From: Octopus vulgaris
Taxonomy: Eukaryota
Direction: 5' to 3'
Assembly: GCA_951406725.2 (NCBI GenBank)
Contig: OX597818.1
Coordinates: forward strand, 114,576,001-114,640,000
DNA length: 64,000 nucleotides
The notes beneath the pieces were generated by a model. It was given only the letters and a program-made list of their open reading frames with translations. It made no database searches and was not told the DNA's origin. The translations under genes and the position numbers were made by a program. Positions 33,035-59,396 of this stretch are shown piece after piece (the first letter of the stretch is position 1; the number at the start of each line of letters is the position of its first letter).

Positions 33035-33103
<69 letters not shown>

Positions 33104-33124
33104 CGAAAAGAAATGAAATAATAA

Positions 33125-33216
33125 TTAACAATGAGAAGTGGATCATTGGTGTCTATAAATCATTGTTTAATCAAACAATGACTTTAAAACACCAATGATC
33201 CACTTCTCATTGTTAA
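33125..33216. repeat. Fold-back inverted repeat (28-bp perfect outer arms plus a 9-bp inner stem)
   Basis: TTAACAATGAGAAGTGGATCATTGGTGT at 33125-33152 and its reverse complement at 33189-33216. Confidence 0.9.
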
Positions 33217-33726
33217 ATATTGCTCCATTTTTTCTCTTCTCTCTATATATACTAAACCGCGGTTTACCTACTACTGTATACCTTATAACAAGGACCATAC
33301 ATACTGAGGTAATACACCAGGAGTGCCTACGGATACATCTATCCCTTAGATCGTTGCATAACCCCTAGCTTATATCTTACTATGTATATATACACACATA
33401 TACATAATATAAATGCACATCTATATATATGTATGTATATACATGCATGTGCATTAACATTTCCTGTAGTGTATAATGTGCATAAAACAGATTTATTTAA
33501 ACATAACCAGTTTATGGCCACACTTTCACAGTCACAGTCGCATACATACACACAGAAGTATGCAAAATTCCACACACACCTATACACACTCTCAGTCTTT
33601 CTCGCGCTAACACATATTCATATCTATATATACATACATCCACATGTCCAATATATCTATATATACATATACAATACTATGTATATGCATATACATAGTA
33701 TATACATATATATATATATATGTGTG

Positions 33727-51459: not shown

Positions 51460-51730
51460 TTATTTTATAGAAGGAGCTTCTACAGGACTAGAACTGTTTC
51501 ATTCAAATGAAATCATCAGGAAGCTTCCTGATGATTTTATAGAAGGAGCTTCTACAGGACTAGAACTGTTTCATTCAAATGAAATCATCAGGAAGCTTCC
51601 TGATGATTTCATTTGAATGAAACAGTTCTAGTCCTGTAGAAGCTCCTTCTATAAAATAAATTAATTTACTCTGCCATGTATTGAGTACCTTATTTACTGT
51701 GGTTAACCCCGACTCAACCCGGGACCTACA
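51459..51730. mobile_element. Penelope-end-like remnant in (TA)n: a 72-bp tandem duplication plus a ~124-bp perfect palindrome carrying three hammerhead motifs
   Basis: Direct repeat at 51463-51534 and 51535-51606; palindrome 51534-51657 centred on AAGCTT. The Penelope assignment is inferred. Confidence 0.7.
51594..51644 (+). ncRNA. Putative type-I hammerhead ribozyme (two further copies on the minus strand at ~51475-51525 and ~51547-51597)
   Basis: AGCTTC-CTGATGA-T[TTC ATTT GAA]T-GAA-ACAG-ttctagtc-CTGT-A-GAAGCT. All three stems can form, and the cleavage triplet is GUA. Confidence 0.75.
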
Positions 51731-53520: not shown

Positions 53521-54847
53521 CCGTTTTTGCCATATGTGAATCGATTTAAATCTAACATACAAATAATACACAGCCTAATCGCATCTAGTTTTCCGTTGCT
53601 TGTTGTGTAATATGTAATATTTTGTTTATGTGATACAGATTAAGATACAGTGTAACTTATTTTCTATAGATTCCGTTTGTATTTTTATAATTTTCTGTGT
53701 GATAGTAGCGTCTCTGCTAATATTTTCACCTGAAATCGCTGCTTGTTGTAATTAATGTAATTGAGTCATGTTTCACTGTAAAAATGCGAGACGTTATTCT
53801 GATGGGTATTACACTCATCAGGGAGAAAATACTGGATGGCTTAAAAAGAAAACTCACGAAAGAAACAAGTTAAACTGATGTGTCGGAAAGGAGTCTCTGA
53901 GCCTCCCAATTTTCGCATGCAATTATTATCATAGTTTTTCTTGCGCTGTTAAACAAAGGACAAGACTACTGACTGCTGCTACCGTCATTAGCCATCATTA
54001 GCCATCATTATCCGAAGATAAATTTTATAACCCTGAGTTATTCACTACGTCACATTAAGAAATGGCTGTTAAGTGATGAGGCTTATTATAATTGTAAGGC
54101 AATTGTCAAAATGAGTCTAAGTAATAAATATATTGCTATTTTAGATAAGGATAAAAATGCTCAGAGTTAATATCTGATTACAAAACATTTAGAGAGTAAG
54201 TAGATCAATACGTGTGCTTACTGTAACTTTACGACTAACCCTACAGGAATACACAGTGATGCCGCCATATTTTATTCAGCTGTATTATTGCAAGAAGACA
54301 GTTGCTGTCAACGTCCGCTATATTGGCAAAATCATAATATTTCCTGTCAAATTACTTGGCAAACTTAATTTCCTTTATAAAAGCAATAATTGATTATATA
54401 CCTACAGCATATCATCTTACTCCATTTTCTTCGTGTGTTTCTTGACTGTGTAAGAAAAACAACGCCATTTTTTTTCCAATCAAATCTGCGTCAGTGACTA
54501 GTAAATGTAACACCAACTTTAATTGAAACTATATTTCTATACGTGCACTAGATGTCATGAATACATGCTTAAAACAATTTATTTCACACTGAAATTAGTA
54601 TTTCAAGTGACATTTATATGATATTTTGGAACGATTATCCCACTTGTGTACTTCGTCAAATATCAAATTTTTTTCAAAAACATAAACCATTAGAAACAAG
54701 CGGACAACAAACTGTTCAACCGTAAAGTAGATTACAACTTCGTAATAACAATATTTTCTGGGAATATAATCTCAGTTAACTGTTACTAAGGGGACTGCAT
54801 ATATATATATATATAATCAAAATGAGCAACAAGTATATCCAAGGTAG

Positions 54848-54935
54848 AGTAGTACAATTGTTTCATGCTACTTCATTTTATTAAACACTGTATGTATGAC
54901 ATCAGTTTTAAAATGTTGAGCAATCTTCAGCCACT
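54848..54935 (-). ncRNA. Putative type-I hammerhead ribozyme inside an element (54811-55048) with ~28-bp inverted ends
   Basis: The minus strand reads AGTGG-CTGAAGA-T[TGCT..long loop..AGCA]T-GAAAC-AATT-GTA-CTACT, with a palindromic stem III. Confidence 0.7.
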
Positions 54936-55630
54936 TATAGAATTTTCCAATTAAACGGACAATGCACATTCTTATCCTTATTTCATTTGCCAACATTATA
55001 AAGAGGTTGGATATACCTGTTGGATATACTTGTTGCTTATTGATTATAATCACCCCATTTGATTTATATGGATAATACCATACAAAATTCTAATGCCTTT
55101 AACTTAAGTACCATATTCATCTGAATTTAAATTTTGCTTATATATATATATATATGTATAAAGCAGAAAGAAAGAACTGAGAAAAATAAAACGAGCTTCA
55201 ATACAATCTGATTTATTTATAATTTAAAAGTGGGGAGTCTGGATTCTTGACTTACAGAGGTTTGGGTATGACGTAAAACTGAACTTCATTCGCTGAGTTC
55301 GAATCTTACAAGTGATAAATTATTGTTTTGTAATTCAGCGGCTGATAAAGGAAATGCTGGTCAGCTACAGTAGTCATTAAATATGACGATTCACTCTCGC
55401 TAAAATATGTGTGGCTTTCTATCAATGGCGGGATTTTGAGCGATGTGACAATAAACTTTACCAACATCATTACTGTCGTGCTGTACAATTTCTTTTCCAT
55501 AGATTTAGCTATATCCATCACGACCTCAAGTTTCTATTTATGTATCAGTCTATCAAACTATCAATCAATCAATCAACCAATTAGTCGATCAATCAATCTA
55601 TCTATCTATCTGTCTGTCTGTCGGCCTGTG

Positions 55631-55720
<90 letters not shown>

Positions 55721-55807
55721 GCTAGCTAGCTATCTAACTATCTATCTATCTGACTGTCTATTTGTATATATACACACACACGAAAACACACACACACACG
55801 AATGCAC

Positions 55808-55859
<52 letters not shown>

Positions 55860-56350
55860 GACTGTCTCCTTTCAGTTTGCGTCTACTAACCGATTAACAA
55901 AGTTCAGATCCTCCCGGAGATATACAGAAGACACTTGCCCAAGGAGCGACGCAATGGTTCTCAACCCGTATCCCGTGATTGGAAAGCAAACGTCTTGCCC
56001 CACATCCACACCCACGCTTGCTTATATACATGTAACTACATATATACGCCAACGAAAACACAGATTACCCAAGCTGTATTCTAGAGTTTTGTACCAGCGC
56101 GCATACACAAACACAAGCACACACTCATACTCAAACATACGCGCCCGCGCTTTTATTTCCGCGGTAGAACAGAATTGTTGTTTCCCTATAATACATAGAT
56201 CTTGTCATGAAAACCATAAGACGTCCTTAGTGAAGTTGATAGCTGCAGCAAAAAAAAAAAAGTAAAACTATTTATCAATTAGCCTAATTTAATTGCGAGG
56301 TTCGTTCTACAGTGCAGAGGCGTGGCAATTATAAGTGTACACACGTTATG

Positions 56351-56577
56351 CATACATACATACATACATACATACATACATACATACATACATACATACA
56401 TACATACATAAATACATACATACATACATACATACATACATACATACATACATACATACATACATACATACATACATACATACATACATACAAACATACA
56501 TACATACATACATGCATACATACATACATACAAACATACATACATACATACATACATACAAACATACATACATACAT

Positions 56578-56600
<23 letters not shown>
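56351..56600. repeat. (CATA)n microsatellite; representative of many (TA)n, (CA)n, (GATA)n and (CATA)n tracts in the window
   Basis: Directly visible. Confidence 0.95.
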
Positions 56601-56608
<8 letters not shown>

Positions 56609-56773
56609 TGCATACAATTTTAGAAAAACAATTTAGAGATGTGGAAATTTTACCGATAAGTGTTTTAAATAATAAGGCACTAAAAGAGAATGACTCTCCC
56701 CAGACACAACAGAATATGCTTCAACACACGAACTCATATAAAGAATCTTGCAAACCAAATCCCAAAACGAAAT

Positions 56774-56806
<33 letters not shown>

Positions 56807-58112
56807 ATAAATGAGTGTGCAATGAATTACCACCGGATGGGTACTCGGAAAGATTCAAAGCTATTGTAATCCAACTTCCTTACCAGAGTACCAATAATTC
56901 CACGGAACAAGAGTTGTTATCCAGAAAATCTGTAAAGCTGAAGCGTGAAATATGACAGAAAGTACACAAAAGCATAGTATTGCCATCGTATTTTTATAAT
57001 ATTTTCACAAGATATTATATTAACATAACCTACTTAGAAAACCGTGGTAATCGAATCATGTTCGCATGTGCATTGCTTGCTAAGGATGGCAAATAACATT
57101 GGATTAAATTACTATTTGCTTCCTAAGATCTGGTGTTTCAAATAATTATGCAATCGTCTACGTAATAGTTACTGTACCCTAGTGATTTCCGACGGTTTAA
57201 TTAGTGATTAATTAATTCTCTTGTTTTATTCTGCTCTCATTATACTCTCTGTAAATCATTAAAACGTATATAATACCAAAAGAAAATTGGAGGACAAGTC
57301 AAGTGTACTTCTTGCTTGGGAGATGAATAAACATGGATGTATACCGAATTCTAAGCAATGGTTAACTGTTATCCTATATTATTCGAAATAGCAACTTTTT
57401 AACATATATATATATGTATAGATGTATGTATGTATATGTATGAGTGTGTTTGTGTGCGTGTATGCGTAGTTGTGTGTGTTTGTGTGTTTGTGTGTATGTG
57501 TGTGCGTGTATGTGCATGTGTATGGTTCAAAAATATACAAAGTATATACAAAAATGGAGATAGGTGAAAGAAAAACAGAGTGTGTTTGTTTGACGGTAAA
57601 ATAAATGAAACAACTTCAACCTCTTGAATCTACGTTAATCTACAGAAAAAAATGTTGAGAGAAAGCAGATGAGGAGATAAAAATGGAGCGCAGAAAAGAC
57701 GTGTGTGAATTAGCGATGCTAAGAATAATATCTTCTTCACCATTAATATTATTTACCAACATCACCATAAACAGCAAGAGTAAGAACAACAAACATTACA
57801 ACAACGGTGACCCATCACGTAATCCTCTGCGAGCCATGTTTGTATCATGTGATACACAGCTTTGAAAATTAAGAAATTTTTATGTATGTGTGTTTGGTTT
57901 GCAGGATTTCAGATGTGAAGGAGAAGAGGAAAGTCAATGAGAAGGGCGCGAATAACGACAAAAAGACTTTGACGAACAAACAGTCGATTGACTGTTTAAC
58001 CAAAACATGAAACAAATAGTCCATTAGTTAGTTGGTTAAATATTCAATAAATTAACTAACAATAAAGAAGTGATATTGAAACACGGCGTGTGTAATTATT
58101 GATGGCGTAATG

Positions 58113-58580
58113 AAGGCGGTGATCTGGCAGAATCGTTAGCACGCCGGGTGAAATGTTTAGAGGTATTTCGTCCGTGTCTACGTTCTGAGTTCAAATTCCG
58201 ACGAGGTTGACTTTGCCGTTCATCCTTTCGAGGTCGATTAAATAAGTACCAATTAAGCACTAGAGTCGATGTAATCGACTCAATCCCTTTGTCTGTCCTT
58301 GTTTGTCCCGTCTATGTTTAGCACTCTGTGGGCAATAAAGAAATAAATAATGTAACACTAGAAAGGCGGCCATCTGGCAGAAACGTTAGCACACCGGGCG
58401 AAATGCTTAGAGGTATTTCGTCCGTGTCTACGTTCTGAGATGAATTTCCGCCTAGATCGACTTTGCTGTTCATCCTTTCGGAATCGATTAAATAAGTACT
58501 AGTTACGCACTGTGGTCGATGTAATCGACTTAAACCCTTTTTCCAAGTTGCTCTTGTGGATGAAATTTGAAATGATTATT
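58113..58580 (+). mobile_element. Two tandem family A SINEs
   Basis: Heads AAGGCGGTGATCTGGCAGAATC (58112) and AAGGCGGCCATCTGGCAGAAAC (~58363). Confidence 0.85.
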
Positions 58581-59082
58581 AAAGGCGTAATGGCCGTCCC
58601 CAGACACAATTTTCAATAAATTACTTCCAGATACTGCCTGAAAAAATATGAGATGGTCACTGCTTTCGGATATCTGAAAGATGCTGATTTGAATATGTTT
58701 GACCTGGGACGCCAAAATAGCAGCGCCAATAACGCCAAGACCATTCAGATATCAAGGGGTTGCAATGAATAACTCACAATAGATACTACAAAACTATACA
58801 GACAGCGGCTTAACCGTATGGTAAGAATTTACAGGATTGATTCAAATCTTGGTCAACGTTAGTTAGATTTTTCTATTATTGTATGGCAGGAATTCATGTA
58901 ATGTGGATGAAACATGACCGTTGAAAACTGTATAGGAGCCCAATGTATATTTTCTTGGAAAATTCAGTAACTTCTAAATTGGAGTGTTCTTTGTCTATCT
59001 CCTTAACTTCTTGGCGATTTTAGGAATAATTATACTAATGTGTCCATCTGTTCTAATTTAATTAAATTCTATTAAATTCTGT

Positions 59083-59171
59083 GTGCAGCTGAAGATTGCA
59101 CTGTATATTAATTTGGTGTAATGATGGCATTGCTCAATTAAATGGAGTTGCATGAAACAATCGTATTGCAT
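59083..59171 (+). ncRNA. Putative type-I hammerhead ribozyme, same repeat family as 54848-54935
   Basis: GTGCAG-CTGAAGA-T[TGCA..long loop..TGCA]T-GAAAC-AATC-GTA-TTGCAT, followed by the same GGATAT.CTTGTTGCT.ATTTTGATTA-(TA)n terminus. Confidence 0.7.
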
Positions 59172-59257
59172 TACCTCTGGATATCCTTGTTGCTTATTTT
59201 GATTATATATATATATTCATGTGTGTGTGTATAAATATATACCTATCTATCTATCTA

Positions 59258-59350
<93 letters not shown>

Positions 59351-59360
59351 TGTGTGTGTG

Positions 59361-59396
<36 letters not shown>

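What the first reader, a model, noticed from the sequence alone, without database searches (positions are those of the whole stretch)
54811..59206. Two diverged hammerheads show compensatory changes and a shared U-U at the base of stem II
Seen: 54848-54935 (-) and 59083-59171 (+) share CTGAAGA, GAAAC, GTA and the same terminal sequence but differ in their stems. Stem I is AGTGG/CTACT versus GTGCAG/TTGCAT, and stem II is TGCT/AGCA versus TGCA/TGCA, with ~48-nt loop II sequences that are not alignable. Both, and the otherwise unrelated motif at 51594, have U opposite U where hammerheads usually have a G-C pair. Inference: structure-level selection and a lineage-specific hammerhead variant with a long loop II and a dimer-type stem III (CAATTG).
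Basis: partly seen in the sequence, partly recalled or inferred. Interest (0 to 1): 0.7.

Follow-up and report, generated by a model that had tools for sequence, protein, structure and literature searches.

The report
Hammerhead tails of Hydra-clade retroelements
The two motifs are leftover tail ends of a very common jumping gene (a Penelope-like element), each carrying a hammerhead-shaped RNA that likely cuts itself only weakly and as a pair; the odd U-U is already published for this group of elements, so the find is ordinary apart from an unusually long second stem.

Summary
Both type I hammerheads are real (none in 60 shuffles). They are 3' fragments of two subfamilies of one high-copy Penelope-like element (PLE). 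Walking upstream in other copies reached a Hydra-clade RT/GIY-YIG ORF. The 51594 motif belongs to a second Hydra-clade family, which explains the shared U·U. U10.1·U11.1 is not lineage-specific: 14 of 25 Hydra-clade families in Craig et al. 2021 (File S2) have it, and Perreault 2011 reported it in natural hammerheads. Three details of the finding are wrong. The ~48-nt 'loops' do align (30/49) and fold as a long interrupted extension of stem II. The stem II 'compensation' rests on a rare change in copy B. Copy B has CAATCG, not CAATTG. Stem I covariation holds, and sister subfamilies carry G-C in place of U·U. Self-cleavage is untested, and RNA reads of a relative show no ends at the site. What is modestly new is the long stem II and a natural G-C/U·U swap series. 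The scan's earlier notes held nothing on this family.

The parts
54848..54935 (-). Hammerhead A (type I): stem I 54935-54931 with 54852-54848, core CUGAAGA 54930-54924, U10.1 at 54923, extended stem II to U11.1 at 54865, GAAA, palindromic stem III CAAUUG, predicted cleavage after 54853
54812..55015 (-). 5'-truncated 3' end of PLE subfamily A (about 85 nt of UTR, hammerhead, short tail), ending in (TA)n at about 54799-54816
   Evidence: about 96% identical to other genomic copies
55020..55140 (+). Inverted partner piece of the same insertion: long tail only, from +10 to about +131 after the predicted cleavage site, ending in (TA)n
   Evidence: row L031
59083..59171 (+). Hammerhead B (type I): core 59089-59095, U10.1 at 59096, extended stem II to U11.1 at 59153, stem III CAAUCG (non-palindromic, likely CpG decay of CGAUCG), predicted cleavage after 59165
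58941..59207 (+). 5'-truncated 3' end of PLE subfamily B (about 150 nt of UTR, hammerhead, short tail), followed by (TA)n at 59204-59394
   Evidence: (84-86% to the RT/EN-bearing copies L208, L209, L212)
51462..51730 (.). Head-to-head ends of a second Hydra-clade PLE family (C): hammerhead cores at 51600-51638 (+), 51591->51553 (-) and 51519->51481 (-), each U·U with a 4-bp stem II; long tail on the + arm; flanked by (TA)n

Best explanation
Motifs A and B are the hammerhead-bearing 3' ends of two subfamilies of one abundant Hydra-clade Penelope-like retroelement, left as short 5'-truncated insertions in (TA)n, and the hammerhead likely self-cleaves weakly, as a dimer and probably with help from the element's protein. 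The element's RT/GIY-YIG protein would nick (TA)n and copy the RNA from one of two sites downstream of the hammerhead. U10.1·U11.1 is an accepted alternative to G-C at the base of stem II in this clade. The ~48-nt insert is an interrupted hairpin that extends stem II to about 20 bp. Selection acted on the source elements; the two window copies are decaying, and copy B has lost the dimer palindrome. Shown: the anatomy, the copy numbers, the link to the ORF and the covariation between subfamilies. Inferred: cleavage, dimer formation, protein help and the insertion mechanism.
For: High copy number: 829 and 2226 first-look candidates; 8494 long U...U cores against 205 in the reversed-pattern control. 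Upstream walk: a long AT-rich UTR leads to a same-strand ORF with ADKTGN, FDIGMGSSD, an RT active-site motif (LYRDD in L212), WFNIPY, CxCx5C and an EN without CCHH. By eye it matches the Hydra-clade alignment shown. L208 and L212 hold ORF pieces and this hammerhead in one locus. Family A copies (L103/L125) and the G-C sister L240 carry the end of the same EN upstream. Family C links to a Hydra-type RT/EN, RT 39-45% identical to family B's. There are two 3' end classes, about +38-42 and +125 or more, mostly into (TA)n, and inverted 5' copies occur. Covariation. Published U·U: 14 of 25 Hydra-clade families; Perreault 2011. Dimer model and low activity: Cervera and de la Pena 2014. Protein-assisted cleavage and internal RT start: Frangieh 2024.
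Against: No cleavage was measured. RNA reads from three runs (one study) of a related organism cover the family on both strands, cross the predicted site and show no pile-up of ends, although such libraries show ends poorly. Tail-only genomic fragments begin at scattered places (+10, +11, +12, +15, +19, +27 and others), none at the cleavage site. Neither whole window motif folds as a hammerhead by minimum energy (z 0.46 and 0.01). Rfam finds no hammerhead here and Pfam gives no significant match for the ORF pieces. Clade membership was read by eye from motifs, with no tree, and the element is longer than the published '<3 kb'. The G-C/A-U change in the dimer palindrome is also what CpG decay alone would give.
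Confidence: 0.82

Rival explanations
1. A lineage-specific hammerhead variant in which U·U and the long insert form a new, specially selected architecture.
For: The stem II insert (about 20 bp) is much longer than the 3-7 bp stems with 3-10 nt loops listed for Hydra-clade elements. It covaries and keeps a nearly invariant unpaired U five pairs from the core.
Against: U·U is published in other phyla. The same long stem occurs with G-C in sister subfamilies, and U·U occurs with a 4-bp stem in family C, so the two features are independent. Long-insert cores with C11.1 number 10345 against 450 control.
Confidence: 0.1
2. The hammerhead fold is kept for something other than cutting, for example as a binding site for the element's protein or as a pairing device that holds two template RNAs together; catalysis is vestigial, which would be why mismatches at 10.1-11.1 are tolerated.
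For: Genomic copies span the site, so uncut RNA was the template. In the anole PLE, ribozyme mutants still insert and no reads end at the site. U·U, A·C, G·U and G-C all occur at this position in this genome. In family C, 9 of 9 close inverted pairs among 30 listed copies have one short and one long end.
Against: The catalytic residues and GUA are unchanged across the 25 aligned subfamily members (partly imposed by my search patterns). Inverted pairs also occur in Naiads, which lack canonical hammerheads.
Confidence: 0.2
3. Chance matches, or neutral divergence of dead repeats with no structural constraint.
For: Related sequences can beat the shuffle control without any structure (the tool's own caveat). 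The folds of the window copies are only marginal (z about -1.9).
Against: 0 strict hits in 60 shuffles; a 41-fold excess over the reversed pattern; 5 of 6 stem I pairs change on both sides; unrelated stem sequences close the same core in many families.
Confidence: 0.03

Closest known systems
Hammerheads of Hydra-clade PLEs (Craig et al. 2021, PMC8557442; section 11, passages, supplement part 2 with File S2, and alignment passages read)
   Same: Type I hammerhead near the 3' end; U opposite U at the base of stem II in 14 of 25 families (13 distinct sequences), 8 of them opening with the same U-UGC...GCA-U as copies A and B; insertion into (TA)n; DKT, CxCX5C, EN without CCHH.
   Different: Stem II here is about 20 bp with internal loops, not 3-7 bp. 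Stem III is 2 bp plus a 4-nt palindrome. The 3' UTR is several kb long with diverged internal repeats, and the linker is Asn-rich. The one cephalopod family listed there (Hydra-1_Obim) has a different hammerhead.
Minimal and palindromic-stem-III PLE hammerheads (Cervera and de la Pena 2014, PMC4209133; parts 1-3 of 4 and supplement parts 1-2 of 3 read)
   Same: Type I, short stem I, palindromic stem III, dimer model. Two of 56 rows of Fig. S3 (Hydra magnipapillata, Drosophila willistoni) have U...U; the GAAA column was extracted separately, so its placement is my inference.
   Different: Their consensus is one extra nucleotide plus G10.1-C11.1 and a helix II of 7-8 bp.
Natural U10.1-U11.1 hammerhead (Perreault et al. 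2011, PMC3088659; section 8 and passages read)
   Same: The same mismatch, reported there as natural and as the most active mispair in earlier mutagenesis.
   Different: Treated there as a rare variant with no link to a retroelement clade in the passages read.
Poseidon PLE of Anolis, PAc (Frangieh et al. 2024, PMC11167929; main text read)
   Same: Two 3' end classes from internal RT starts, AT-rich targets, uncut RNA as template, no reads ending at the site.
   Different: A different PLE clade. Protein-assisted cleavage was shown there and is untested here.

Membership tests
Type I hammerhead ribozyme | Core C3-A9, G12-A14, A15.1-U16.1 and an NUH site, in type I order | tested here: met
Type I hammerhead ribozyme | Three helices around the core, with covariation | tested here: met
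   stem I 5 of 6 pairs and basal stem II 3 of 5 pairs change on both sides; stem III is only 2 bp in a monomer
Type I hammerhead ribozyme | G10.1-C11.1 pair (usual, not obligatory) | tested here: not met
   U·U in the window copies; G-C in 9 of 25 aligned relatives; U·U is a published natural variant
Type I hammerhead ribozyme | Match to an Rfam hammerhead model | tested here: not met
   also none among the 150 of 201 rows shown
Type I hammerhead ribozyme | Tertiary contact between stems I and II | tested here: inconclusive
   a conserved unpaired U in stem II is a candidate; no partner identified
Type I hammerhead ribozyme | Site-specific self-cleavage | not testable with these tools
   needs an assay; RNA reads show no ends at the site
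Dimer-type PLE hammerhead | Palindromic stem III | tested here: met
   50 of 85 copies held are CAATTG or CGATCG and 30 more are single CpG-type changes; met in copy A, lost in copy B
Hydra-clade PLE | RT with DKT in place of DKG | tested here: met
   ADKTGN in L209, compared by eye with the alignment
Hydra-clade PLE | CxCX5C linker and C-terminal GIY-YIG-type EN without CCHH | tested here: met
   read by eye, no Pfam match; family B has YFG at the YIG position
Hydra-clade PLE | N-terminal RWK motif | not tested
   the longest copies held are 5'-truncated before it
Hydra-clade PLE | Insertion into (TA)n, optional tail, inverted 5'-truncated copy | tested here: met
Hydra-clade PLE | Generally short (<3 kb; described as typical, not defining) | tested here: not met
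   ORF plus UTR spans about 6 kb in L208 and L209, later insertions included
Hydra-clade PLE | Placement in the Hydra clade on an RT tree | not tested
   reference proteins were seen only as text in a supplement
Non-LTR retrozyme | Short non-coding tandem repeats, one hammerhead per unit | tested here: not met
   A and B are dispersed ends of an ORF-bearing element

The most novel reading that the evidence does not exclude
The long stem II, with its conserved unpaired U, is a functional add-on (a tertiary contact or a binding site for the element's protein) that makes the base of stem II free to swap between G-C and U·U. The palindromic stem III pairs two template RNAs so that a dimeric RT/EN primes both DNA strands, giving the head-to-head pairs with one short and one long end. 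That would give PLE hammerheads a role in insertion itself, not only in RNA cutting.
Probability: 0.1. Interest if true: 0.65.

Novelty: new member of a known kind. Interest (0 to 1): 0.25.

Why it matters
It corrects the idea of a new lineage-specific ribozyme: U·U is a known feature of Hydra-clade PLE hammerheads. What remains useful is practical. This genome holds many thousands of hammerhead cores with 40-70 nt between the two core halves, of a kind Rfam missed at both motifs tested here. It also holds near-identical sister subfamilies that differ by G-C versus U·U, a ready-made natural series for asking how much catalysis PLE hammerheads need, which is still an open question.

Tried and rejected
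Rfam: no hammerhead match; the microRNA hits are microsatellites or palindromes. One element spanning 54.8-59.2 kb was rejected: the long element L209 matches the window only at 54805-54931, 55022-55135 and 58941-59214. A young Neptune-type PLE (label from recalled motifs) was rejected as the parent: it gave no credible match to the A/B upstream region and only E >= 0.02 to the family B ORF pieces. A coding frame in the 3' UTR was rejected: many stops in all six frames of 5 copies. Pfam gave nothing significant for the ORF pieces. Ends at the cleavage site were not found in genomic fragments or RNA reads. No RNA holder was listed for the window stretch itself. A pile-up of 5' ends at the hammerhead in families A and B was not found: 89 of 90 copies scored, spread from 3 to 400 nt. 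The direction of the G-C/U·U change is unresolved: the tree needs 2 changes, one origin is not excluded, and it is unrooted. The pattern counts are upper bounds for true U·U, because some U...U hits are an extra U plus a G·U pair (for example L263). The 83 of 85 U·U reflects how I collected the copies. Lünse et al. (small PLE hammerheads that cleave as dimers) is not held; I saw only its citation and a review's passage, and it may describe these variants. I did not find a long interrupted stem II described for PLE hammerheads in five searches or the papers read; subscription papers and bioRxiv supplements were not visible.
Full report
Observation. A descriptor scan of the whole window found 6 start positions: A, B, three copies of the 51.5-kb motif and one chimeric pairing. 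All have U opposite U at 10.1/11.1. A strict version found none in 60 local dinucleotide shuffles. Rfam has no hammerhead match at either motif. Three details fail. The inserts align at 30 of 49 positions (0 of 2000 shuffles as high), and the motifs with tails at 93 of 127. Each insert folds as an interrupted hairpin, so it is a long stem II and not a loop. Copy B's stem III is CAATCG, which cannot self-pair. Its TGCA at the start of stem II is seen in only 3 of 85 copies held.

What they are. The window lies in a 2.8-Gb genome; I infer an animal, probably a cephalopod, from its repeats. A and B each have many close relatives, and intermediates exist, so they are subfamilies of one element. 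Copies end at about +38-42 or at +125 or more after the predicted cleavage site, mostly in (TA)n. They are 5'-truncated at scattered points and often sit beside an inverted partner, as copy A does at 55020-55140. Walking upstream from family B through a long AT-rich, non-coding UTR with diverged internal repeats reached a same-strand ORF with ADKTGN, FDIGMGSSD, LYRDD, WFNIPY, CxCx5C and an endonuclease lacking CCHH. These are the features given for the Hydra clade of PLEs, and they match the published alignment by eye. Pfam gave no significant match and no RT tree was built. L208 and L212 hold ORF pieces and this hammerhead together, and window copy B is 84-86% identical to them. Family A copies carry the end of the same endonuclease upstream. 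The 51594 motif (2392 exact cores, 0 in the control) belongs to another Hydra-type element whose RT is 39-45% identical to family B's. The DNA between A and B is not part of the element.

The U·U. Genome-wide patterns gave 2661 short and 8494 long U...U cores (controls 502 and 205), against 3196 and 10345 with C11.1 (controls 757 and 450). So U·U is common but has not replaced G-C. These counts are upper bounds. Sister subfamilies of A and B carry G-C with the same long stem, and other lineages show G-C/U·U or A·C/U·U pairs of sisters. In print: Perreault et al. 2011 report a natural U10.1-U11.1 and cite it as the most active mispair. Fig. S3 of Cervera and de la Pena 2014 shows it in 2 of 56 rows. 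File S2 of Craig et al. 2021 shows it in 14 of 25 Hydra-clade families from Hydra, a sea cucumber and a copepod. The shared U·U of the three window motifs is therefore a clade trait and not a lineage-specific novelty.

Selection on structure. I aligned 25 hand-picked subfamily members, 16 with U·U and 9 with G-C. Of all cells, 86.8% pair (79.0% shuffled); 13 of 29 pairs change on both sides (5 of 500 shuffles as high); the covariation score is 0.340 against 0.202 shuffled and 0.05-0.11 slid. RNAalifold recovers stem I and all three parts of stem II, though it mispairs the core. Caveats: the rows are related, the stem II structure came from one member, and core conservation is partly imposed by the search. 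Stem I of A versus B differs by two true compensatory pairs and one wobble. The dimer palindrome alternates between CGATCG and CAATTG, which CpG decay alone could produce. A tree with the two test positions masked needs 2 changes of state and does not exclude 1.

How it likely works. By analogy with published PLE hammerheads, the 2-bp stem III is too weak in a monomer, and two copies would pair through the 8-nt palindrome (-6.4 or -10.0 kcal/mol) to cleave slowly after GUA, probably with help from the element's protein. The RT/EN would nick (TA)n and start copying at one of two sites downstream, which gives the two end classes. All of this is inferred. Against frequent cleavage: genomic copies span the site, tail-only fragments do not start at it, and reads from three RNA runs of a relative (about 6% of each run read; 452, 535 and 305 reads laid) cover both strands with no pile-up of ends. 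The same lack of ends was reported for the anole element.

Novelty. The class, the host element and the U·U are known. I did not find the roughly 20-bp interrupted stem II described for PLE hammerheads in five searches, but Lünse et al. was not available, and Craig et al. list one PLE hammerhead with a 9-bp stem and a 34-nt loop. Of the other papers, I read part 1 of 5 of the 2026 retrozyme preprint and passages of PMC7936874 and PMC6765202; none changed the reading. Earlier scan notes on this genome concern other motifs, and look-ups by sequence and by words found nothing on this family. Verdict: a new member of a known kind, interest 0.25.

Noticed in passing
window 51462-51730; L290-L319: In family C, 26 of the first 30 listed copies stop 0-6 nt upstream of C3, inside the 5' strand of stem I, with varied junctions and mostly head-to-head; 9 of 9 close pairs have one short and one long 3' end. 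The true upstream sequence ends in a pyrimidine tract plus AG 4 nt before the core. A transcription start, a 3' splice site or microhomology at the AGCT palindrome could each explain it. Families A and B show no such pile-up.
   Followed up: partly
L239 and many rows; L250, L251, L255: Abundant hammerhead families with A opposite C at the base of stem II, some with U·U sisters (L253, L254, L257); G·U also occurs (L066, L210).
   Followed up: partly
G000:C1:71597378-71603427; L079, L080: A tandem array of 12 units of 546 bp, each with a U·U hammerhead and a GTAC palindrome; retrozyme-like.
   Followed up: no
L208, L209, L128-L146, L198: The family B element has an Asn-rich linker before the endonuclease and a multi-kb non-coding 3' UTR with repeats of about 870 bp at about 70% identity, unusual for a clade described as <3 kb.
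   Followed up: partly
alignment A1, column 69 (window 59148 in copy B): A nearly invariant unpaired U five pairs from the core in the long stem II, and a conserved TTGTTGCTT block in the tail; candidates for a tertiary or protein contact.
   Followed up: no
L184-L187: A young, high-copy PLE with long open frames of 1092-1200 codons and near-identical copies; Neptune-like by recalled motifs.
   Followed up: no
window 33096-33244: A long near-perfect hairpin that scores on both strands against a microRNA model, below its threshold; probably another inverted insertion.
   Followed up: no
window about 58120-58340 and 58365-58545: Two related dispersed repeats between the hammerheads, SINE-like (label recalled, not tested); the second matches other loci.
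   Followed up: no
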